Source: the human T2T-CHM13v2.0 reference genome, Homo sapiens
Reading direction: 5' to 3' (one strand)
Assembly (NCBI RefSeq): GCF_009914755.1
Contig: NC_060936.1
DNA length: 64,000 nucleotides
Of this stretch, positions 1,911 to 64,000 are shown piece by piece. The notes under the pieces were generated by a model that saw only the letters and a program-made list of their open reading frames with translations, did not search any database and was not told the DNA's origin. Positions within the stretch are counted from its first letter, which is position 1. Every line of letters starts with the position of its first letter. Position numbers and translations under genes: made by a program.

Positions 1911-2926
1911 CCAGACTTGGAAAACAACCATATGTTCAGTGCAAAGTCTAAGTATTTGGAATGTGGGGATCATTGAAAAGGAATCTCTTCCAGTAGTTTT
2001 TCTAGAATATGTTTAGAATATGTTCCTATAGTTGCTCCCTATCTCATTCTCTTTCTATTCACTTACTGCAACACTACCATATTTTTTATAAAACACTAAT
2101 CTTATCGTGTTGTGTCCTTGCTCAAAATGACCAAGTTAAATGACCTTCAAGATAAAGTCATTCATTCATTCATACAATATTTCAGTGTGTACAATATGCT
2201 AAATTCTGTGTTAGTTGAAGTCAGCATTCTTCAAAGAAATTTAGTTTCCTTTTCTTAAACATATGCAAGGTATAACAGGCAACTGGGTTGAAGCTGTATT
2301 TTTATCACCACAATAAATATATTCTTATTTTAAAATTGATATTATTTTTGGTTGACAAATCATAATTATATTACATTTATAAAGTAGAATGTTATATTTT
2401 GATATATGCATATGGGTGTATAGCTATGCACACAAACACAGATATCAAAATGGATATATATAGATATCTATATGTAAGTAGATATAGATTCTTAAACCAT
2501 GACTAAAGGAATATTGAAATTATTTACTTTTTGAAACTAAGGTGACTGCCACTCGTAACAGATATGCTACTTTCTGAAATATTTCCAGATGCAGTTCCAT
2601 ATCATGTAAGTCTTATTCTTGCTGTCCCTAGATTAATGGCCTTTATCCTTTCAAGAGGAGGTTGGCCACCCTCTAGAACAGAGGGGCCACTAATCGGCTT
2701 TGAGTTTCAGAGCTAACCTTTGGAAATCTTAGATAACAAACTCGAATGACAGAATTTGAGAGTAAAAAGCAGTGAAGATCTCCAAGATATGTCCCTTTAC
2801 AAAACAAAAGCAAAATGCAGATCATAAACAGCCAGTGTGGGAGCTCTCACACACCTAGGGAGGAAGAAGAGAGAATATTGGGCAAAGAAAGAGGTAGAAG
2901 AGGGATGAAGAGCTCAGAGGCGGGGT

Positions 2927-3154
2927 TCAGGCTTCCTCCATATTGGTATTAATATTTGGCTTCCAGGGCAGTGGTGCAGAAGCCTGTGAGTGGCACAAAG
3001 GAATCCGCAGCCCTGTGGGCTGACAGTCCTCTTTCATTGACATTTCTTGGTGGCAGGAGTTGAGGGTGGCAGCGAGAGCACAGGACTGTCTGGGAATCCC
3101 TGTTTTTAGCCTTGTGTCCATCTAACCTGGTGAGAGAGAAATAAAAAGCCACCG
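2927..3154 (-). other. Candidate minus-strand exon start (tandem acceptors before 3154 and 3126) followed by a 64-aa short ORF
   Basis: Minus strand reads GTTTTCCTTCCTTTAG|CGG...GCTTTTTATTTCTCTCTCACCAG|GTTAGATGG; unique sequence; no transcript evidence. Confidence 0.3.
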
Positions 3155-3275
3155 CTAAAGGAAGGAAAACGTCTGGATTGACTGAGTTAAAGTTGGTTAT
3201 TTATTCCTCGTAGTTGGTGCCCATGTGCAGGGAAACTGAAAAGTCCTATGCTCTGTTCTGCCCTCTCCAGACCAC

Positions 3276-3312
3276 CACACACACACACACATACACACAC
3301 ACACACACACAC
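3276..3312. repeat. (CA)n microsatellite
   Basis: Visible CA run with one TA interruption. Confidence 0.95.
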
Positions 3313-3626
3313 ATGCATGCACAAAACAGAGGAAGACTGAGGAAGCCCTGGCATGGGGAGAAAAGGGGGAACCTCAAGTCCAAAGGCAATGGTAGGTCAG
3401 CAACAGATTCACTGGCTCAAAGTCCAGGTGGGGCCAATTGCATCAGCAGCTGATCCAACAAGGACAGAGCCCCTCAGGGTAGAGACCAGATTAGGGTGCA
3501 GAATCCAGGAAGGACACAGAGGTCAACTCAAGGACCAGCATGAATAAATGTGACAGCCCACACTCCCAGCCCTAGCCACAGTGATACAGCCTCCCCCAAA
3601 GATGGTTTCTTTAGTTGGGACAGAGG

Positions 3627-4114
<488 letters not shown>

Positions 4115-4228
4115 AACGGGGAAATGGAAAAACTAATAAACAAAGAGGATTTGACACAGCTATTTTGTGTTCACTTTTTATTCCCTTTCAACCTGCCCAG
4201 TAAGGTGAGGGGTCAGAAGCGAGAATAA

Positions 4229-4531
<303 letters not shown>

Positions 4532-5465
4532 GTGAGAATACATTATGGAAACAGCTCTATTTTTCTTTGTATATTAAAGTGGATGAACTTTGACCCCAAT
4601 AGATGTGTCTCAAAAATTATTACACTATTTTATCAAATATTTCCCTATTTAAATTACTCCAACCGCTTTTAAAAAGTCTTTTTTTTTCTTTCCACCTTCT
4701 CTAAGTATATCAGGTCCACTTCTTCCCATGCTATTGAAAATTACATGTTATCTCACTCAGCATACAAAAGGAACCAAGCACTTCAATTTCCTAAGATTCA
4801 CTAAGAAAGATGACCACTTCTACGCACTGCCAGCCTGAAGCGTATTTCCTAGCATCCTCTTCTGAAGTCTGCCAAAAAGATGCACAATCTAAAATCTAAA
4901 ACTGTCATAAATCTGAGATACTATGGCAACTTGCCTAATTTAAACTTTTAAAATGTGCGTCATTGCTCCTTTTACAAATTCCAAGAACTTTTGCATTTTT
5001 TATCTAACACAGAGGTACTTGTGGAGGTAGCAGTGTTGCATTGGAACCCGCAGCTGGAACCCATGGGCCTTATTCTCTGGGTTTACCAGTTAGCTGAGGG
5101 TTCTTGGATGAGCCACTTGATCTTTCAGGGTATTACGTTAATCACATGAAAGAGCTGGTTGACACAACCTCTAAAGTTCCATCCTGCCCTAATATTTCTA
5201 TCTTAAGTAGATGATAACTTCTGATGGCATCTTAACCTTGCAAATTCATGAATATAGGCACCAAAAAGCTAAACAATTTGCCAATCATGGTAGGAGAACT
5301 GGTAGCATGAAAAGACAGAGATGGTAAATGAGACTCAGATGGTCAATAATAATCATAAAAGCAAACATTTAGATATTTTATAGTAGCTCCTATGAGTAGG
5401 CAATGTGCTAAGCATTGTCATGTGTTACCTGGCTTAATTCTCAGAATGATGCTATGGGAGAGATA

Positions 5466-5467
<2 letters not shown>

Positions 5468-5507
<40 letters not shown>

Positions 5508-5771
5508 GAGTCTCACTCTGTCACCCAGGCTGGAGTATAGTGGTGCAATTAAGACTCACTGCAGCCTTGATCTCCTAGGCTCAGGTGATCCTCCCACCTC
5601 AGCCTCCTGAGTAGGGATTACAGGTGTGTGCCCCATGCCCAGCTAATTTTTTGAATTTTTTTTTTTTTTTGTAGAGATGGGGTTTTACCATGTTGCCCAG
5701 GCTGGTTTTGAACTCCTGGCCTCAAGCGATCCTCCCACCTCAGTCTCCCAAAGTGTTGGGATTACAGGCAT
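5468..5771 (-). mobile_element. AluJ-type, lacking ~18 nt of its 5' end
   Basis: Poly(T) then reverse Alu with J-type features (gcagccttga, ctcaagcgatcctccc); stops at 'attacaggcat'. Confidence 0.93.
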
Positions 5772-5778
5772 AATCTCG

Positions 5779-6006
5779 ACATGGCCCCACTGGGCCAGCC
5801 ATCCTCTGCCCTAAACGTCTATCTTTGATGCATTTCTCCTCTTACAGATGTAGATTTGTCATGTTCCGCATCATTCATCTGACTGAAAACCAATATGCCA
5901 ACTACAGCCCATACTGTGTACTACAGCAAAAGCACACTGCTCTTATCCATTGGAATATGGCTCCACAATCAAAAGTTTAATTTTTGCTCCTTTCCAACAT
6001 ACACTG
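5779..6006 (+). repeat. 228-bp direct copy of unique sequence 7657-7882
   Basis: Aligns end to end (acatggcccc...caacatacactg) with 13 substitutions and one 2-nt indel by hand count. Confidence 0.97.
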
Positions 6007-6469
6007 ACAGGGAAAGGTACTTTTATTGTATTCATTTTATAGATGAGAAAACTGGCACAGAGAGATTAAGAAATGTGCTCAAGTTCACACAGCTAGAAAG
6101 TCTTCAGCTAGCTCTGCTCCCCCATTCATTGCATCCAAAACAATTCCATTAAAACATAATGAAAAGTGCATGACAAACAAAATTCTAGAATCACTGTACA
6201 TTACAAATATTTAACATAACCATTTCTGAAACTAAAACTAACTAAGAATGCAGAAAAATGTTACTGAAAATTTACTTTCATGAGGTATCAGTGCATAGAC
6301 GCAAAGTTGAAATTGGAAGACATAATCATGTGTTCATTTTATTCTAAAGATAAGAAAAATGAGTTGACTTAGGGTAGTGGCAGGACTGTGCCTGGAACCC
6401 AAGTACCCTCTTTTCCAGCCTCGTGCTCCTTCCACTGTTTTCCTAATACATATTTTTGGAAAGACAACA

Positions 6470-6645
6470 GGAATTCCTGTTCTCATTCACTAGCTGTATA
6501 ATCTCTTGCCTCAGTTTCCACATCTGTAAAGTCTGAGAAACAATAATACCTACTGCATGTGGTTGTTGGGATCCTCACATCAAACACTTAGAACCATCCC
6601 TGGTACCCAGTAAGCCCCTAATGAGTGCTGGTCTTCATTATTACC
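6470..6645 (+). mobile_element. MIR
   Basis: gcctcagtttccacatctgtaaa...aataatacctact core. Confidence 0.75.
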
Positions 6646-7573
6646 ACAATAGCAATAGAACATTTGGAAAATCAGAAGGTCAAAAAGTCAAGAGCCACTC
6701 AACAGCTTGGCAAGGAGAGCATAAAAGGCATGTAAATCGCATATGAGGTATTCCAGACTTTTCATGTAAAAACTCCATTCCTTACTCGCCTAAGCACACC
6801 ATGGAAACAACAGAGGTAAATAAATTGTTGTGGGGACTAGAGATGCAGAAATCCTAAAAGAAGTAATTTTACTGGCAAAGTTTTAGGTAGAATTCCTAGC
6901 TTCCAGCCTTAGCTTCATCATTGATAGTTGAGCTGTGGAAAGTCAAATTTCGTCTTTGTGTCTCAGTTTCCTTCTTAGAGCTTCCCTATCCAGGGATACT
7001 TTTCAAAGTTTCTCAAATTTCATTAATAACCGGGGTCTAAAAGGAGATTCCATATATTAATTTTAAAAATTCTAACCAAATGAACAATGTACAATCTTGA
7101 TTCCCAAAACTTTTCTTCATTCTATTTTGCATCCGATTTCCTGCCATTATTAACTCGGTTCTGATTATAGAAAAACATACATAATTTGCAATTCAAACAG
7201 TCTTTAATCTTAAAAGGGTTTCCATTGTGGAAGAGAGAACAAGTTCCCCTAGCTCTGTCCTTGGCATAGCCCATCACTTGCTCAAGGGATCTTAACTCAT
7301 AAAGGAGGAGCACTGTATAGCTTTAAAATGACTTCATTCCCATATTTACATATTTTTAATAGGGCTATGATGAATCTCCTTCCGCTTGACTCCTATTTTG
7401 AGCTGTGATATTTTAATCTCCATTCTTGCTGCAACTTAGCAGATGAATGTGCAGTGTGACAGAGCTCAGAGGAAATAGTATAAATAAAGCAAAGTGGAGC
7501 TATGACATCTCACATTTTATAGCTTTTTTATTGTAGCCGAAGCATAAACAGAGCACAGCTGTGTTATACTTAC

Positions 7574-7882
7574 CGCTGTGAGCACTCCCTCAATCCGCAC
7601 CCCCTGTTGCTTTTAAAAAGACAGTGCTCTTATTCAAAAAGCTTTGGCTGTGGGTAACATGGCCCCACCGGGCCAGCCATCCTCTGCCCCAAACCTCTAC
7701 CTTTGACGCATTTCTCCCCTTACAGATGTAGATTTGTCATGTTCCGCATCATTCATCTGACTGAAAACCAATATGCCAACTGCAGCCCATACTGTCCTAC
7801 AGCAAAAGCACACAGCTCTTACCCATTGGAACACGGCTCCACAATCAAAAGTTTAAATTTTGCTCCTTTCCAACATACACTG
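7574..7882 (-). other. Candidate non-coding first exon of a minus-strand transcript
   Basis: Inr-like TGCA+1GT at ~7881; donors TGG|GTAAGA (7823/7822), AAG|GTAGAG (7701/7700), GCG|GTAAGT (7574/7573); CpGs retained; no ATG-initiated ORF found running through the 7574 donor. Confidence 0.45.
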
Positions 7883-8189
7883 CACCCAAATAATTTATGC
7901 ACCCTCTCTTACTAGGAGACAGGAAATTAGCTGAAAGTATTCAAAACAGTGCACTCTCTTAATGAGAGCCCCCTTTTAAAATGAAGAAGTTGTATTTCTC
8001 ACTTTCAAGTTAACTCTTAGTCATGTTTGAGTGAAAGTTGGAAATGCCAAAAAGGCCAAATAGAGTGAAAGTTAAAAGAGTGGTGTTGAGATGAACAAAA
8101 TAATTCTACGTGCTAATGCAATCATCAGGTTTTAGAATGTTTCAGGCTGGTTACGTATTTCAATCATTCTGAAGAAGACAGTATGACGG

Positions 8190-8580
8190 ATAGCATGCAC
8201 CCTCTATCCCCTAGCAATTGAGATTATATAATATGGCTGATTTGTCCAGAACAGGCACCTGATCTAATCCAAGCCAATCAGAGTCTTTCCTTAAGATATC
8301 TGATTTAAGGAGAATGGATAAAGCAGTGAGCTATAAAATTCCAGTGCTGTCATCAATGGTGACATTTCCTCCCATATGGAGAAATCTCTATTGCAGCAAG
8401 AAAGAGTGAAGCCGACATTCAAAGTGACACAGAGACAAGAGAAAGGGATCAAGCCCTGACAAAGTGTGACTCCCGGGTTCCAACTGTTCCTGAGGCCCAA
8501 CTACATTCCTGTCCTTTCCCCTCCTTGGTTATTTGCCTTCCTTGTATTCCTTTACCCAACAAATTCCAGGCTTATTTCTT
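8190..8580 (+). mobile_element. Old MaLR LTR (MLT1K/L-like)
   Basis: aagccaatcagagtctttcc...gaagccgaca...ccaactgttcctgaggccc motifs. Confidence 0.6.
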
Positions 8581-10769
8581 AAACTTCCTCAAATCGGATT
8601 TTTACCACTTTAAAAAAAAAAAAAGAGTCCTAATTATTACACCTTCCAGAAGATTCTTTTTTTTTTTTTTTTCTTCAGATGGGTTTAGATTTATTCTTCC
8701 TTTTTCAAATACCACCACACTATTTATGGGAGGGAGGGAAAACCCTCTGGGCTTGTAGAGGAATGTGTAATGAAAATTCAAAAGACACATGCATCCAAGT
8801 GAAAAGAATATAGGGGCATAGTAGCCTATACACCAGTGAAGTGAAATGAAAGACAGGAAGATTGATTTGCATCATCATTAACATGGAGGGAGAAAAGCAC
8901 AAGAACACAATAACTGCAAGAACCACCTCCATTGACACACGTAATTGTTTCGAAACAACAGACTCAACTGGGCTAACATAGGGGCAAAGTTGGTATCCCA
9001 AGCTTCTCAGCTATCTATCCGCCCAAAGTTGCTCTTCTGCCAAGCTCATTGTTTACCAAGCTGCCAGCCCAGCCCAGGGATCTGATTAGCAATTTGCACT
9101 TTTGTGAGAGGATTAACAGAATTCCTTTGTTTTGATGTCGGATTATCAAACTGCATCTTTAAAGAGGTGTGACCTCATCCAGATTCATAAGCCTGCTCCC
9201 TTGAGAATGACTTGAATTTTACTCCACTTGCGCAACATATAATTTCATAAAGGAGTTACTGTCAAAACATGGTACTCAATTCTTGATGTGTGTGAAGAAG
9301 CACATTTGTAATGTAAATAACCTCAGAAGTTTTGTGATATTTTAAAATAACCCATCTGGTGGGAAAACAAGGATTTTCAACCCATTTGGTTCCAGCACTA
9401 GTAAATTAGTGTGCCTCTAACTCATAGAACCCAGAGATAAACTCCATCCCTGGGCTGAGCCTCATGTTGCTTTTATTTTAAAGGGCAAGTATTTTAATTG
9501 TCCCAGAGTTCTTGATATATTTTTTTTAAAGGAGGGCACAATGCATAAGTGAGTAAACTGAGGAAAACCAAAGAATTTGGCTGCAAAGTGACAATGATAT
9601 CAAATCATCTACAGCATAGTTCATATGAAAAAGGAAAATCAAATCAGAGTTTTGTATTTCTAACTGTATTCTGCAACAGTCAGCTAATCAGAAAAAGAAG
9701 TCCCTAAAATCTCCATCCAAATTTGAAACAAATAAAATTTCCAAGGGGGGCATCTATAGGGCAAGATGCAACAAATTAAGTGCAGACTTTGCACTACTGT
9801 AATCCTTACTTGAGGGGCACTCCTGAATAGAATGAAAAAGAACAGTGTGGCCTACGGAGGGCATGCATTACTAGTGTGAAGACCTTATCTTTGGAAGTAC
9901 GTAAAAGCACAGCCTGGCCATGACAAATGCCCAAAACGCCAGACACGGCTGCAGATCAAGTTGTGGCTTTACTCATTGACCAACGAAAAACCAAAACAAC
10001 AAAACAATAAAAACATTCTGTTTCACAAAGAGGAAACAAGTATAATTAAATATGTATATTTACTTTTAATATCAATTAGACTGTTAACCTAAAGTTGATA
10101 GATTTTAGAATGTTTCTTTCAGTTAGCAAACTTTCAATTATACAGTGAGAGTACTAGGCAGGCCCTGATAAATAAGGCAGAAGGTGTGTTTGTCTGAAAG
10201 CATAGTACATACACACATGTCTGTTACATCAATAGTTCTTAATGGGTGGTTGTGTGGATTAATTAAATCACATGGAAAATAGTTTTTAAAATACCCAAGT
10301 CACGTATTCCCACCTTATAGCCAGTGGATGGGGTGAGAGCATATTTTTCTAAAAAAATCTCAATTAGTATTCAATGAATGCCTCCTTAAACAGCTCTCTC
10401 TTATATTTAGAAATTGCCCTTCTACGTGGATTATTTCCTAGTCTTGCCTTACTCGTGAAATTGGAGAAGTCTTTAAAAAGGTGGATCATGTCTCTTATGA
10501 GCCTCATACAGTGACCCACACATAGTTTTTTGTTCAAATATCAAGTTGGATAAATAAATTCAAAAGACAGTGGTTAATTAATATAGATGTGATAGATGTA
10601 TCTTAGCAGAGAAAAACTTCAGGGAGAGTAGGAATGAACACTAAAAATAACTAAGAATTTGACTTTAACCCCAAAGCTTCCTACATGGAATTCAAAAAGA
10701 AAACAATGTACATTATTTATGACTTCTCTGACCATAAATACAGAACACCAGCCAAAATCGGCCTGAGAT

Positions 10770-11780
10770 TATTCATGTATGCAACAAGTATTGTTCCATT
10801 TGCGAGGAACTATCCTGGGCTCTAGAGATAGACCAGTAAACAAAACAGAACAAGTTCCTTGCCCTCACGCAGCTAATATTCTTAGGGAGATCAAAAACAA
10901 ACAAGATAAATGAACATATGTATATACACACATTAAGTTAGGGAAGTGCTAAGGAGAAAAATTAAAGTAGGGAGAAAAGCAAGTCTTTGGTAGTAGAAGG
11001 GAGGGCCTCCGTAAGAAGCTGCCATTTGAGTCAAGATTGGAAGAAAGTGTTGGAATGAGTCACGCGGTTAACAGAGCAGAGACCACCACAGGCTGAAGGA
11101 ACCTGGAGGAGAGCAAAGGCCCCAGGAGAGTTGGTGGCTTCCACCACATAGGAGAAAGAGCAACGGGCAGTATGGTAGTATGGTAGGGAGGAAAATGGCG
11201 GAAGGGGAAGTCAATGAGGAAAGGGGGTATGGAGGAAAATGGCGGAAGGGGAAGTCAGTGAGGAAAGGGGGTAAGGGCTGACTCTGCTCCTCAAGGGTCA
11301 TAGTAAGGACTCCCCTGAGGTAGGAAGCCATTGGAGGTCACTGAGCACAGGATGACATCTGACTAATCTGATTTACACTTCAAAGGTTCACCCTGGCCAC
11401 GATTTGTGAGAAGACTAAAAAGGAGCCAGTAGAGGAGAAGTCCAGTTAGGAGCCTATAGCCACAATGAGAAATGATGGTGGCTTGACCAGACAGGAAATA
11501 GCGGAGGTGGTGAGAGGTGCTCAGATTCTGGAACTATTTTGAAGGTAGTTTTGTTGAGGCGTTAGATGTACAGTAAAAGCAAAAGAGAGGAGTCAAGGAT
11601 GATAATGAGGTTTTGGTTCTGAGCAATGGGAAGAATAGATTTACCCTTAACTAAACAGAAGACTTCAGGGAGAGCAAGTCTGAGGGACACATCAGGATAC
11701 CAGTTTTGCATGTGCCAAGCAGAGCTATCAGGTAGTCATGTGGATACGTGTGTCTGGAGTTTAGAAACGAGGTTGCAATG
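10770..11780 (-). mobile_element. L2 3' region
   Basis: Reverse L2 tail (attcatgtatgcaacaagta...gttccttgccctcacgcagct) through ggagtcaaggatga...ctgagcaatgggaag. Confidence 0.85.
11187..11273. repeat. 44-bp tandem duplication, purine-rich
   Basis: ggaggaaaatggcggaaggggaagtcaRtgaggaaagggggta twice, one mismatch. Confidence 0.95.
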
Positions 11781-11859
11781 TAAAAGAAATGTATATCCCC
11801 AAATAAGAGTTGTCCTAGCTCTGACCACTACAAGTGGCAGGTTCCAAATGAGTATATAT

Positions 11860-12003
11860 GTATGTATTTATTGATTGTGATTGATTGAGAATGCGATCTC
11901 CCTATATTGCCAAGGCTGGTCACCAACTCCTGGGTTCAAGCTATCCTTCCACCTCTCCCTCCCTAACAGCTGGGATTATAGGTGTGAACCACCCCGCCTG
12001 GCC
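11860..12003 (-). mobile_element. Alu monomer (FLAM-like)
   Basis: Single reverse Alu arm; TSD caaatgagt on both sides. Confidence 0.8.
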
Positions 12004-12480: not shown

Positions 12481-13206
12481 CAGCAGTCCCCAAACTTTTT
12501 GGCACCAGGGACAGGTTCTGTAGAAGACAATTTTTCCAAGGACTGGTTGGGGGGTACTGGGGCTTGGGGAGTGGTTTCAGGATGAAACTACCACCTCAGA
12601 TCATCAGGCATTAGTTAGTGATACGGTTTGGCTGTGTCCCCACCCAAATCTCATCTTGGATTATGGCTCCCATAATCCCTAAGTGTTGCGGAAGGGAACC
12701 TGTGGGAGGTAATTGAATCAGAGGGGCAGTTATCTTCATGCTGCTCTCATGATAGTGAGTTCTCACAAGATCTGATGGTTTTATAAGCGGCTTTTCCCCC
12801 TTTGCTTGGCACTTCTCTCTCACGTGCTGCCATGTAAGATGTGCCTCTTCCTCTACCGCCATTATTGTAAGTTTCCTGAGGCCTCTCCAGCCATGCAGAG
12901 CTATGAGTCAATTGAACCTCCTTCCTTTATAAATTACCCAGTCTCAGATATTTTTTTCATAGCAGCATGAGAACAGACTAACACAGTTAGATTCTCATAA
13001 GGAGTGCACAACCTAGATCCCTCGCATGCACAGTTCACAATAGGGTTTGCGCTCCTACAAGAGTCTAGTGCCATGGCTGCTCTGATAGGAGGCGGAGCCC
13101 AGGTGGTAATGCTGGCTCACCTGCTGCTCGCCTCCTGTTGTATGGCCCGGTTTCTAATAGGTCACGGACTGATACCAGTCTGCATCCCAGGGACTGGGGA
13201 CTCCTG
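12481..13206 (+). mobile_element. MER1B (hAT-Charlie), split by THE1
   Basis: cagcagtccccaaactttttggcacc...ggggactcctg; perfect 8-bp TSD ccttatgg at 12473-12480 and 13207-13214. Confidence 0.92.
12619..12985 (+). mobile_element. THE1 solo LTR (MaLR)
   Basis: TGatacggtttggctgtgtccccacccaaatctc...gactaacaCA; 5-bp TSD gttag. Confidence 0.95.
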
Positions 13207-14460: not shown

Positions 14461-14711
14461 AGCCGGGCATGGTGGCTCATGCCTAGGCTGAGGTAGGAAG
14501 ATCACTTGAGCTCAGGAGTTTGAGACCAGCAGGGGCAACGTAGTGAAATCTCATGTCTACCAAAAGAATTAGCTGGTCATGGTGGTGCATTTCTATAGTC
14601 CCAGCTACTCAGAAGGCTGAGGCAGGAGGATCAATTGAGCCCGGGAGGTAGAGGCTGCAGTCAGCTGTGATCATGCCACTCCAGCCTGGGCAACAGAGCA
14701 AGACCTTGTCA

Positions 14712-26582: not shown

Positions 26583-26951
<369 letters not shown>

Positions 26952-27008: not shown

Positions 27009-27313
<305 letters not shown>

Positions 27314-29858: not shown

Positions 29859-30159
<301 letters not shown>

Positions 30160-30214: not shown

Positions 30215-30490
30215 GGCCAGGTTTGGTGGCTCGCACCTGTAATCCCAGAGCTTTGGGAGGTCAAGGCAGGAGGATCACTCGAGGCCAGGAGTTTGAAATC
30301 AGCCTGGGCAACATAGCGAGACCTCGTCTCTACAAAACATTAAAAAATTAACCTTGCATGGTGGCATATGCCTGTAGTCTCTGCTACTGGGGAGACTGAG
30401 GCAAGAGGATGAATTCTGCCCAGGAGTTGGAAGATGCAGTGGCACAATTGAGCCACTTCGCTCCAGCCTGGATGACAGAGCCAGACCCTA

Positions 30491-63294: not shown

Positions 63295-63707
63295 TGATAT
63301 GATTTGGATTTGTGTTCCCATCCAAATCTCATGTTGAAATGTTTTCCCTAGGGCTGGAGGTAGGGCCTGGTGGGAGGTGATTGGATCATGGGGGCAGTTT
63401 CTCACAGTTTAACACCATTCACCCTTGGTGTTGTCATCATGATAGTGAGCTGTCCTGAGATCTGGTTGTTTAAAAGTATATGGCACCTCCTCACTCTCTC
63501 CCTTCCTTCTGCTCCAGCCATGTAAAGTGCTAGCTTTGCCTTCCACTATGATTGTAAGTTTCTTGAGGCCTCCCCAAAGCCGAGCAGATGCTAGCATCAT
63601 GCTTTCTGTCCAGCCTGCAGAACCGTGAACCAATTAAACCTCTTTTCTTTATAAATTACCCTGTCTTGGGTATTTCTTTATAAGCAGTGCAAGAATGGAC
63701 TAATACA
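63295..63707 (+). mobile_element. MSTA-like solo LTR (MaLR)
   Basis: TGatatgatttggatttgtgttccc...gaatggactaataCA; 5-bp TSD gtctg. Confidence 0.93.
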
Positions 63708-64000
63708 GTCTGTGTCCCTCAAATACCTAGCAGAGCTATAGTTTTGCTTGCATCCTTTCTCTCCCACTGTCTCACGTAAAAGAATGCCCTTTCCTTTTGG
63801 AGACTACATTGCAGATACTTTGACTGAAAACAACCACTTCTGCCACCAAAGAGAAGAGCACTTCATCTCCTTTGCCACAGGAAGGGCATAGAGCCCAAAG
63901 TGGGCCAGTTACAAAAAATTTCCTGGGCCTGTGAGGGAAAAAAAGTATACAGAGTTTTCTCTGGAGATACTAGCTAAGAGGTTGGTGTGGCCTAGAATGG

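What the first reader, a model, noticed from the sequence alone, without database searches (positions are those of the whole stretch)
5456..6024. Alu insertion that captured 226 bp of nearby unique sequence: possible template switch onto the 5' end of a local transcript
Seen in sequence: a MIR is split by [poly(T) + reverse AluJ 5468-5771] + 7-nt linker aatctcg + a 228-bp direct copy (5779-6006) of unique sequence at 7657-7882. One degenerate TSD brackets all of it: gggagagataccttt (5456-5470) vs gggaaaggtactttt (6010-6024), 12/15 identical, next to a TTTT/A L1-endonuclease-type site. The Alu lacks ~18 nt of its 5' end exactly where the captured piece joins. Established: L1 ORF2p target-primed reverse transcription can yield chimeric retrocopies (U6-L1, Alu-L1). 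Inference: the + strand cDNA jumped from Alu RNA to a minus-strand template ~1.6 kb from the target and copied it to 7882. That end coincides with an Inr-like TGCA+1GT, as expected if reverse transcription ran off the 5' end of a nascent local transcript, which would make the copy a fossil record of a transcription start site (TSS). Alternative: DNA-templated capture by strand invasion during repair.
Basis: partly seen in the sequence, partly recalled or inferred. Interest (0 to 1): 0.85.

Follow-up and report, generated by a model that had tools for sequence, protein, structure and literature searches.

The report
Alu insertion carrying a copied neighbouring segment
An old Alu element in a SOX5 intron has, between its front end and its target-site repeat, a 228-base copy of unique DNA from 1.65 kb away; it is a real but fairly ordinary scar of break repair, not shown to mark a transcription start.

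Summary
Window 5779-6006 is a direct copy of 7657-7882 (213 identical, 13 mismatches, one 2-nt gap). These are the only two copies in the T2T genome. The copy lies between a J-type Alu lacking its first 18 nt and the right half of a split MIR-type repeat. A profile of 29 genomic relatives places the same 12 repeat positions on both flanks, so one true target-site duplication brackets poly(T), Alu, 7-nt filler, copy and 3-nt filler.

Size, distance, fillers and end deletion match the published "repair-mediated duplications" (Pace et al. 2009). I favour DNA-templated capture while the Alu's own insertion intermediate was resolved (0.45). A later, separate break at the Alu 5' junction is the main rival (0.30). 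An RNA template is possible because SOX5 pre-mRNA has the required sense (0.15). The proposed transcription start has no support: the Inr-like match occurs by chance at 5-7% of positions, no start site is annotated there, and no RNA family or stable fold was found.

Molecular clocks do not settle one event versus two. All nine transition differences carry the A/T base in the copy, which suggests a slowly evolving source. Primate orthologues, not available here, would decide.

The parts
5344..5467 (+). Left half of the split MIR-type SINE (the family name is recalled; the repeat family itself is shown by genome matches)
   Evidence: nhmmer against a profile of 29 genomic relatives: model positions 53-170, E 8.6e-07.
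5456..5470 (+). Left copy of the target-site duplication (GGGAGAGATACCTTT); its last T residues merge with the poly(T)
   Evidence: Maps to model positions 159-170, the same positions as the right copy. 12 of 15 identical to 6010-6024.
5468..5504 (-). Alu poly(A) tail, read as a pure T37 run on the + strand
   Evidence: Regex count; sequence.
5505..5771 (-). Old, J-type Alu lacking consensus positions 1-18
   Evidence: Alignments with 15 window Alus and 65 Alus from fetched loci. CpG retained at 1 of 21 sites, like the old class. Two below-threshold Metazoa_SRP matches, as expected for the two Alu arms.
5772..5778 (+). 7-nt filler (AATCTCG) between the truncated Alu 5' end and the copy
   Evidence: Matches neither the Alu alignment nor the source flank. 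No other exact match of the spanning 10-mer in the window.
5779..6006 (+). Acceptor: 228-bp direct copy of 7657-7882
   Evidence: 213 of 228 columns identical. One of only two genomic matches.
6007..6009 (+). 3-nt filler (ACA) between the copy and the right TSD
   Evidence: The source continues CAC after 7882, and the right-flank match to the profile starts at 6010.
6010..6024 (+). Right copy of the target-site duplication (GGGAAAGGTACTTTT), followed by A, giving TTTT/A
   Evidence: Sequence; model positions 159 onward.
6010..6103 (+). Right half of the split MIR-type SINE
   Evidence: nhmmer model positions 159-254, E 3.2e-32. 39 non-self genomic matches at 76-90% identity among 40 scored of 177 candidates.
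7657..7882 (+). Donor: unique 226-bp segment, 1651 bp downstream of the acceptor's end, GC 47% in a 36-40% GC neighbourhood
   Evidence: No Alu lies next to it: there are no Alu matches between 5778 and 14485.

Best explanation
One insertion event, completed on a DNA template. L1 endonuclease nicked the + strand at TTTT/A inside an old MIR-type repeat, and the T-rich 3' end primed reverse transcription of an Alu RNA. Synthesis left the Alu RNA at about nucleotide 19 and seven untemplated bases were added. The same growing + strand then annealed to exposed minus-strand DNA 1.65 kb downstream. That DNA belonged either to the resected right-hand break end or to a sister or homologous chromatid. 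The strand copied 226 nt (7657 to 7882), dissociated, gained three more bases and was joined to the staggered upstream cut, which produced the single 15-bp target-site duplication. [quoted passage not shown] Shown: the anatomy, the single TSD, the uniqueness of the donor, the Alu truncation and the fillers. Inferred: that both parts arrived together, that the second template was DNA, and which polymerase did the copying (a host repair polymerase, or ORF2p itself, which copies DNA templates and jumps between templates in vitro).
For: Anatomy. The copy sits exactly where the cDNA 3' end must be joined to the target, and one TSD encloses everything. The Alu has no TSD of its own next to its 5' end.

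Fit to a known class. Pace et al. 2009 (PMC2671141; abstract and passages read) describe 824 proximal duplications inserted into transposable elements. Each has exactly one other genomic copy. The donor lies within 5 kb (753 of 1,136 duplicons under 3 kb). Mean length is 162 bp and the maximum 619 bp. Breakpoints carry filler of 1-68 nt, deletions of 1-15 nt, and in 6 of 39 inspected cases a TSD of 4-21 nt. They propose L1-made breaks as one source. Here the copy is 228 bp, the gap 1651 bp, the fillers 7 and 3 nt, and 18 nt of the Alu are missing.

TPRT background. 5' truncation and extra 5' nucleotides are each common in recent Alu insertions; extra nucleotides occur in 11.7-12.4% (Kojima 2010, PMC2912911, passages). 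ORF2p shows untemplated addition, template jumping and DNA-templated synthesis in vitro, and a jump to exposed single-stranded genomic DNA is part of the proposed insertion model (Baldwin et al., PMC10830420, passages). TPRT intermediates behave as resected double-strand break ends, giving 1-10 kb deletions and duplications (bioRxiv 10.1101/2024.12.14.628481, passages).

Clock. If the source is taken as frozen, the copy's 13 changes match the number expected from this Alu's own class-specific rates (14.9, P(<=13)=0.37). Each class is homogeneous between Alu and copy; for other-type changes, 1/199 versus 4/218, Fisher 0.37. A frozen source is suggested by polarity: all 9 transition differences have T or A in the copy and C or G in the source (binomial 0.004).

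No DNA donor for the Alu. The best non-self genomic match is 84% (40 scored of 3,863 candidates). The Alu part is therefore not itself a recent DNA copy.
Against: No orthologous empty or half-filled site could be examined, so simultaneity is an inference. With rates typical of other J-type Alus, the copy has fewer changes than expected even with a frozen source: 21.1 expected (P=0.04) or 29.6 expected (P=0.001) against 13 observed. That points to a younger copy. If both copies evolved neutrally, the same age as the Alu is rejected: 28-37 non-CpG differences expected against 10 observed (P<=6e-5). The reading therefore depends on an untested constraint on the donor. I found no microhomology at either junction. 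[quoted passage not shown] Sequence alone cannot tell a DNA template from an RNA template.
Confidence: 0.45

Rival explanations
1. Two events. The J-type Alu inserted classically, full length, with its 15-bp TSD. Millions of years later an unrelated double-strand break at the Alu 5' end removed 18 nt of the Alu. It was repaired by synthesis-dependent strand annealing that copied 226 bp from 1.65 kb downstream, with 7-nt and 3-nt fillers. This would be an ordinary repair-mediated duplication that happens to abut the TSD.
For: All hallmarks of the Pace et al. class are met: filler plus deletion, donor under 5 kb, length, and a single other copy. The copy looks younger than typical J-type Alus: 13 changes against 21-30 expected, P 0.04 to 0.001. 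The copy retains 1 of the 4 CpGs still present in the source, while the Alu retains 1 of 21. The TSD pair is more diverged (3/15) than the duplicate pair (13/226), Fisher 0.067.
Against: The later break must fall by coincidence within about 20 bp of the Alu 5' junction and leave the TSD intact. My rough estimate is that such zones cover under 1% of the genome; this is inference, not a call. With neutral evolution of both copies, the 9:0 polarity of transitions is unexpected (P 0.004). Once the source is taken as frozen, the copy's divergence is also compatible with the Alu's own rates, so the clock gives no clear preference.
Confidence: 0.3
2. One event with an RNA second template. ORF2p switched from the Alu RNA to an internal site of a minus-sense transcript tethered at the locus. 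The most plausible candidate is nascent SOX5 pre-mRNA, since the site is intronic to long SOX5 isoforms on the minus strand. ORF2p copied 226 nt before the insertion was resolved.
For: The required template sense (minus strand) equals the sense of SOX5 transcription according to the supplied RefSeq table. The nick is on the strand that serves as the SOX5 template, so a stalled polymerase could hold the last 2 kb of nascent RNA near the site; this step is inference. ORF2p template jumping is shown in vitro, and template-switch chimeras of L1 with cellular RNAs are documented (PMC13174262, passages).
Against: Documented chimeras involve abundant small RNAs or spliced mRNAs from other loci, usually copied from their 5' ends. 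None of the five literature searches that were answered turned up capture of local intronic RNA. The 1.65-kb distance and 228-bp length are what the DNA-templated class predicts. Entry would be at an internal site of the RNA rather than at a 3' end. No RNA-specific mark is present, such as a splice junction or editing of the expected polarity: A-to-I editing would give C in the copy where the source has T, and 0 such sites are seen.
Confidence: 0.15
3. The second template was a short local minus-strand transcript, reverse transcription ran off its 5' end at about 7881/7882, and the copy's right end therefore records a transcription start site.
For: A BBCABW initiator-like match has its A at 7881, next to the last copied base 7882. 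The 3-nt ACA could be untemplated addition at a template end (for that activity).
Against: The motif is within 1 nt of 4.7% of window positions (7.2% with the second motif), and YYANWYY is not matched. The copy extends one base beyond the proposed +1. No TSS, exon or functional element is annotated there in the supplied table. The only TATA-like ATAAAT lies at about -17 to -12 rather than -30 (read). There is no CpG island (4 CpGs, observed/expected 0.38). No Rfam family matches and the fold is not exceptional. An end point at any position is equally expected from polymerase dissociation.
Confidence: 0.04
4. The segment is an unannotated dispersed repeat, or a 5' transduction from a source Alu that lay beside the donor.
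For: None found.
Against: There are only two genomic copies. No Alu lies next to 7657; the nearest Alu match to the right of the insertion is at 14485.
Confidence: 0.01

Closest known systems
[quoted passage not shown]
   Same: The acceptor interrupts a transposable element. Exactly one other genomic copy exists. The donor is on the same chromosome under 5 kb away (here a 1651-bp gap). Length is in range (228 bp against a mean of 162 and maximum of 619). Filler is present at both junctions and there is a short deletion at the acceptor. A minority of their cases also carry TSDs, and L1-made breaks are proposed as a source.
   Different: Here the acceptor abuts the 5' end of a poly(A)-tailed Alu and shares that Alu's TSD.
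Template-switch chimeric retrocopies (U6/L1, 5S/L1, Alu and mRNA chimeras; reviewed and catalogued in PMC13174262)
   Same: Two unrelated sequences lie head to tail in one orientation inside a single TSD. A poly(A) tail sits at the 3' end and the target is an L1 endonuclease site. The 3' partner is 5'-truncated.
   Different: The 5' partner here is not a known cellular RNA (no Rfam match). It comes from 1.65 kb beside the target rather than from another locus. A 7-nt filler separates the parts. The 3' partner is an Alu, not an L1.
Aberrant resolution of L1 TPRT intermediates by break repair (deletions, small duplications, rearrangements; bioRxiv 10.1101/2024.12.14.628481; cell-culture studies by Gilbert and by Symer are recalled, not read)
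   Same: The TPRT intermediate is treated as a resected double-strand break, with local alterations within resection range (under 10 kb).
   Different: The outcomes described in the passages read are deletions, tandem duplications regarded as large TSDs, inversions and translocations. They are not a dispersed 226-bp templated patch with the intervening 1.65 kb left intact.

Membership tests
Repair-mediated proximal duplication (Pace et al. 2009) | Inserted sequence of at least 50 bp interrupts a transposable element whose two fragments are contiguous on the family consensus (within about 30 positions) | tested here: met
   Flanks map to profile positions 53-170 and 159-254. The insertion also contains an Alu, a case their pipeline would have filtered as a nested TE.
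Repair-mediated proximal duplication (Pace et al. 2009) | Acceptor has exactly one other copy in the genome, and the search is reciprocal | tested here: met
   The acceptor query gives 2 of 2 matches at this locus. The donor-region query gives only itself and the acceptor.
Repair-mediated proximal duplication (Pace et al. 2009) | Donor on the same chromosome, more than 50 bp and less than 5 kb from the acceptor | tested here: met
   1651 bp between the end of the acceptor and the start of the donor.
Repair-mediated proximal duplication (Pace et al. 2009) | Breakpoints with filler, deletion and/or microhomology; no poly(A/T) at the acceptor end | tested here: inconclusive
   Fillers of 7 and 3 nt and an 18-nt loss from the Alu are present. 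No microhomology was seen. The acceptor itself has no A/T tract, but the adjoining Alu has T37.
Repair-mediated proximal duplication (Pace et al. 2009) | Empty site in an outgroup species | not testable with these tools
   No primate genomes are held; the own genome has no relatives in the collection (header).
Classical L1-mediated Alu insertion (TPRT) | Poly(A) tail, TSD of roughly 7-20 bp and a TTTT/A-type target | tested here: met
   T37. TSD of 12-15 bp shown on the repeat profile. TTTT followed by A at 6021-6025.
Classical L1-mediated Alu insertion (TPRT) | TSD directly abuts the Alu 5' end, and the Alu is usually full length | tested here: not met
   The Alu starts at consensus position 19, and 238 bp (7 + 228 + 3) separate it from the TSD.
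Template-switch chimeric retrocopy | Both parts inside one TSD, same orientation, 3' part poly(A)-tailed | tested here: met
   The orientation is consistent if the second template had minus-strand sense.
Template-switch chimeric retrocopy | The 5' part is a copy of a cellular RNA | tested here: inconclusive
   No Rfam match at E up to 10 inside 7657-7882; fold z-score -1.33. SOX5 pre-mRNA covers the segment in the right sense according to the supplied table. An RNA origin cannot be shown or excluded from sequence.
5' transduction from a source element | The transduced sequence lies immediately upstream of a source Alu | tested here: not met
   No Alu adjoins the donor, and the flanks are unique.
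Pol II initiator / transcription start at 7881 | Initiator motif at the copy's end, beyond chance | tested here: not met
   BBCABW is present at 7881, but such a match is expected within 1 nt at 4.7% of positions. YYANWYY is absent.
Pol II initiator / transcription start at 7881 | Capped 5' ends mapped at the site | not testable with these tools
   No CAGE, RAMPAGE or PRO-cap data are available. The supplied RefSeq table lists no TSS or functional element there.

The most novel reading that the evidence does not exclude
The second template was nascent SOX5 pre-mRNA held at the nicked template strand by a stalled RNA polymerase II. The 228-bp patch would then be a fossil of ORF2p jumping from an Alu RNA onto the host gene's own nascent transcript. 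It would also be indirect evidence that the long SOX5 isoforms were transcribed in the germ line of an early primate.
Probability: 0.13. Interest if true: 0.6.

Novelty: new member of a known kind. Interest (0 to 1): 0.3.

Why it matters
If Alu and copy arrived together, this locus links two literatures that are usually kept apart: chimeric retrocopies, and repair-mediated proximal duplications. It would be a germ-line fossil of an Alu insertion intermediate finished by copying nearby DNA. This is the kind of event that the Pace et al. pipeline filtered out as nested insertions. A census of such composites, scored for orientation relative to host genes, could tell DNA-templated from RNA-templated completion of retrotransposition. 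As a single locus it has no evident functional consequence. It may have duplicated a slowly evolving, GC-richer patch of a SOX5 intron that could be regulatory.

Tried and rejected
1. Unannotated repeat: rejected. Only 2 genomic copies exist.

2. 5' transduction from a neighbouring source Alu: rejected. No Alu adjoins the donor.

3. Donor as a small RNA gene with ends at 7882 and 7657, which would have explained both boundaries by end-to-end template jumping: no support. There is no Rfam match and the fold z-score is -1.33.

4. Alu part as a DNA-level copy of another genomic Alu (a chimeric two-donor repair patch): rejected. The best non-self match is 84%, and poly(T), TSD and TTTT/A are all in place.

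5. Local origin of the 7-nt filler: none found. Five matches with up to 1 mismatch against 2.4 expected, and the only exact match is itself.

6. Homeology between the missing Alu 5' end and the donor start: a 9/10 match at 7665-7674, reached by 1.9% of 30-nt windows. It cannot produce the observed junction, so I treat it as chance.

7. APOBEC-type editing of the nascent + strand, as an explanation of the C-to-T excess in both Alu and copy. After correcting for base composition the strand bias is not significant: the source has 76 C against 31 G. The dinucleotide contexts also differ between the two parts. Not adopted.

8. Regional strand-asymmetric mutation: the other 15 window Alus show no + strand C-to-T excess.

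9. First BLAST attempt to map the left flank on repeat relatives found 0 of 29. A looser run found 2, and the profile search succeeded.

Whether this locus is listed in Table S1 of Pace et al. is therefore unknown.

11. Splice-site-like or poly(A)-like signals at the donor boundaries, checked by eye: none coincide with 7657 or 7882.
Full report
**What is there.** The window is T2T-CHM13 chr12:24,242,001-24,306,000 (header), inside the span of SOX5, which lies on the minus strand (supplied table). Reading 5300-6200 and 7500-8050 shows, left to right on the + strand:
- repeat-derived sequence ending ...GGGAGAGATACC;
- a pure T37 run at 5468-5504;
- an Alu in reverse orientation, to 5771;
- seven bases, AATCTCG, at 5772-5778;
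- 228 bases at 5779-6006;
- ACA at 6007-6009;
- GGGAAAGGTACTTTT at 6010-6024, followed by ATTG and further repeat-derived sequence.

The repeat finder reports 5779-5917 = 7657-7795 (95%) and 5917-6006 = 7793-7882 (93%). A gapped local alignment joins them into 228 columns with 213 identities, 13 mismatches and one 2-nt gap.

**Is it more than chance, and is it unique?** A search of the whole assembly with the 228 bases scored 2 of 2 candidates, both at this locus (100% and 93%). A 1001-base query centred on the source found only itself and the copy. A self-comparison of the 64-kb window found just two low-copy pairs, and this is the only proximal one. In 58 unrelated loci fetched for other purposes (184 kb), only tandem repeats reached 88% identity over at least 60 bp. 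The segment is therefore unique DNA duplicated once, 1651 bp from its source.

**The flanks are one repeat, and the duplication of the target is real.**
- The right flank has at least 39 genomic relatives (40 scored of 177 candidates).
- BLAST could place the more decayed left flank on only 2 of 29 of them.
- I therefore built a profile from the 29 relatives, each extended 150 nt upstream.
- nhmmer maps 5344-5467 to model positions 53-170 (E 8.6e-07) and 6010-6103 to positions 159-254 (E 3.2e-32).
- Positions 159-170 thus occur on both sides. That is what a target-site duplication looks like and what a simple split does not.
- The first six aligned bases of the right flank have lower posterior support. 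The overlap is 12 positions at face value and at least 6 with high confidence.
- The name MIR is recalled, not tested.

**The Alu.**
- Alignment with 15 other window Alus and 65 Alus from fetched loci shows that it starts at consensus position 19, so positions 1-18 are absent.
- On 16 diagnostic non-CpG columns, the unselected copies fall into two groups: 10 with a score of at least 0.5 and 41 with at most 0.19. This Alu goes with the first, older group. The label AluJ is recalled.
- It keeps CpG at 1 of 21 sites, with TG 8 and CA 8. That resembles the older group (7% kept) and not the younger (31% kept).
- Its closest genomic relative is 84% identical (40 scored of 3,863 candidates). It therefore has no recent parent or DNA donor among the copies scored.

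**One event or two?** A separate, later Alu insertion beside an existing copy is excluded, because no TSD lies next to the Alu 5' end. Two orders remain:
- H1: Alu and copy arrived together.
- H2: the Alu came first, and a later break at its 5' junction was repaired with a templated patch.

I compared substitution clocks.
- Non-CpG divergence of the Alu from its subfamily consensus is 13/199 (reference of 39 J-type copies, three tail columns dropped) to 17/199 (10 unselected copies).
- The duplicate pair differs at 10 of 218 non-CpG sites.
- If both duplicate copies were neutral and as old as the Alu, 28-37 differences are expected (P<=6e-5). H1 with a neutral donor is rejected.
- The differences are strongly polarised. 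At all 9 transitions the copy carries T or A and the source C or G, with none the other way (binomial 0.004, 0.03 for the 6 non-CpG ones). Symmetric neutral decay cannot give this under either hypothesis.
- The simplest reading is that the donor has hardly changed. It is a GC-richer patch (47% against 36-40%) that still has 4 CpGs (observed/expected 0.38 against 0.21 for the window).
- With the donor frozen, the copy's 13 changes compare with 14.9 expected from this Alu's own class-specific rates (P 0.37) and 15.5 from S-type rates. They compare with 21.1 (P 0.04) or 29.6 (P 0.001) from typical J-type rates.
- The TSD pair (3/15) is somewhat more diverged than the duplicate pair (13/226; Fisher 0.067). 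It fits twice the duplicate divergence, as a frozen donor predicts (P 0.24).

The clocks therefore do not decide. H1 gains from explaining why the patch lies exactly at the 5' junction inside the TSD. H2 gains from the copy looking young by typical J standards. I put H1 at about 0.6 and H2 at about 0.3.

**What was the second template?**
- The nascent strand primed at TTTT is the + strand, so the template had minus-strand sense.
- This is the sense of minus-strand DNA exposed by 5'-to-3' resection of the right-hand break end, or of a sister chromatid. It is also the sense of SOX5 pre-mRNA. Sequence cannot tell the two apart.
- I favour DNA because the event matches a documented class. Pace et al. 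2009 found 824 duplications inserted into transposable elements with a single donor under 5 kb away (753 of 1,136 duplicons under 3 kb). Mean length was 162 bp and the maximum 619 bp. Filler ran 1-68 nt and deletions 1-15 nt, and 6 of 39 inspected cases had TSDs. They link the rate of such events to L1 and Alu activity (abstract and passages).
- ORF2p itself adds untemplated bases, jumps templates and copies DNA in vitro (Baldwin et al., passages).
- TPRT intermediates behave as resected break ends (bioRxiv 10.1101/2024.12.14.628481, passages).
- Documented RNA chimeras involve small RNAs or spliced mRNAs from other loci (PMC13174262, passages).
- The five literature searches that were answered turned up neither capture of local intronic RNA nor an Alu-plus-proximal-duplicate composite. 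Pace et al. filtered out nested insertions, and none of their 39 inspected proximal cases had a poly(A/T) tract. The composite may therefore simply be uncatalogued.

**The transcription-start idea.**
- The minus strand reads GGGTGCAGTGT with an initiator-like BBCABW match whose A is at 7881. The copy runs to 7882, one base beyond that A.
- Such a match lies exactly at 1.6% of window positions, within 1 nt of 4.7%, and within 1 nt of 7.2% if YYANWYY is also allowed. YYANWYY itself is not matched here.
- There is no CpG island. The only TATA-like hexamer is at about -17 to -12. The supplied table shows no annotated start. No Rfam family matches at E up to 10, and the fold is not exceptional (z -1.33).
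- Polymerase dissociation at an arbitrary point explains the end equally well. CAGE data could not be consulted.

**Other readings rejected.** The remaining alternatives I tested are listed with their calls under Tried and rejected.

**An oddity left open.**
- This Alu's 13 private non-CpG changes are 9 G-to-A, 3 C-to-T and 1 C-to-G on its sense strand, with no A-to-G or T-to-C. Its rate of non-GC-to-AT changes (1/199) is the lowest of 81 Alus compared. None of 80 others has so high a share of GC-to-AT transitions.
- Three of the 13 equal the S-type state and may be subfamily variants.
- The copy shows the same leaning: 9 of its 13 changes are GC-to-AT, and 8 of those are C-to-T on the + strand.
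- An editing burst on the single-stranded + strand would fit both H1 and H2. However, the strand bias is not significant once base composition is allowed for, and the sequence contexts differ between Alu and copy. I record it as unexplained (note).

**Verdict.** The best explanation is DNA-templated capture of proximal sequence during resolution of the Alu insertion. A later independent repair event is a strong rival, and only primate orthologues can exclude it.

Noticed in passing
window 5505-5771 (minus strand): The Alu's private non-CpG substitutions are almost all GC-to-AT transitions (12 of 13; 9 are G-to-A on the Alu sense strand). Its rate of all other substitution types (1/199) is the lowest of 81 Alus compared. 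Its CpG decay (1 of 21 kept, TG 8 : CA 8) is typical of old Alus.
   Followed up: partly
window 5468-5504 and 5651-5664: An old Alu carries an uninterrupted T37 tail and an expanded 14-A run in its middle linker. The other J-type Alus in the window have short, interrupted tails. This suggests recent homopolymer expansion.
   Followed up: no
window 7665-7674: The donor holds CCACCGGGCC, a 9/10 match to the reverse complement of the Alu 5' end that is missing from the inserted Alu. 1.9% of 30-nt windows in 2000-12000 score as high, and the match cannot by itself produce the observed junction.
   Followed up: yes
window 7657-7882: The donor is a GC-richer patch (47% against 36-40% around it) that keeps 4 CpGs and shows no change at any of the 9 polarised transition sites. 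It may be a constrained or germ-line-unmethylated element in the SOX5 intron. It contains CACAATCAAAAG, which resembles SOX/TCF-type motifs (recalled, not tested).
   Followed up: partly
window 12883-12987 and 63606-63709: A second low-copy pair in the window: 105 columns at 76% identity, 50.6 kb apart. It is probably two copies of an old, rare repeat.
   Followed up: no
window 26659-26915 (-) / 27029-27281 (+), and 29877-30132 (+) / 30236-30489 (+): Two closely spaced Alu pairs, each joining a younger S-type and an older J-type copy. One pair is inverted with a gap of about 110 bp, and the other is in tandem with a gap of about 100 bp.
   Followed up: no
window 5522-5581 (+) and 5598-5645 (-): Below-threshold Rfam matches to mir-3135 (35 bits against a gathering score of 80) and mir-1268 (22 against 83) fall inside the Alu. 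They most likely reflect Alu-like sequence in those Rfam families, not microRNA genes here.
   Followed up: no
L012 and L013 (G000 C7:74.58 Mb and C7:74.20 Mb): Two fetched chromosome 7 loci carry the same arrangement of three Alus at matching offsets. This is consistent with a segmental duplication.
   Followed up: no
L058:853-1225: A tandem repeat of about 168 bp at 98% identity, in a locus fetched only for its MIR-type repeat.
   Followed up: no
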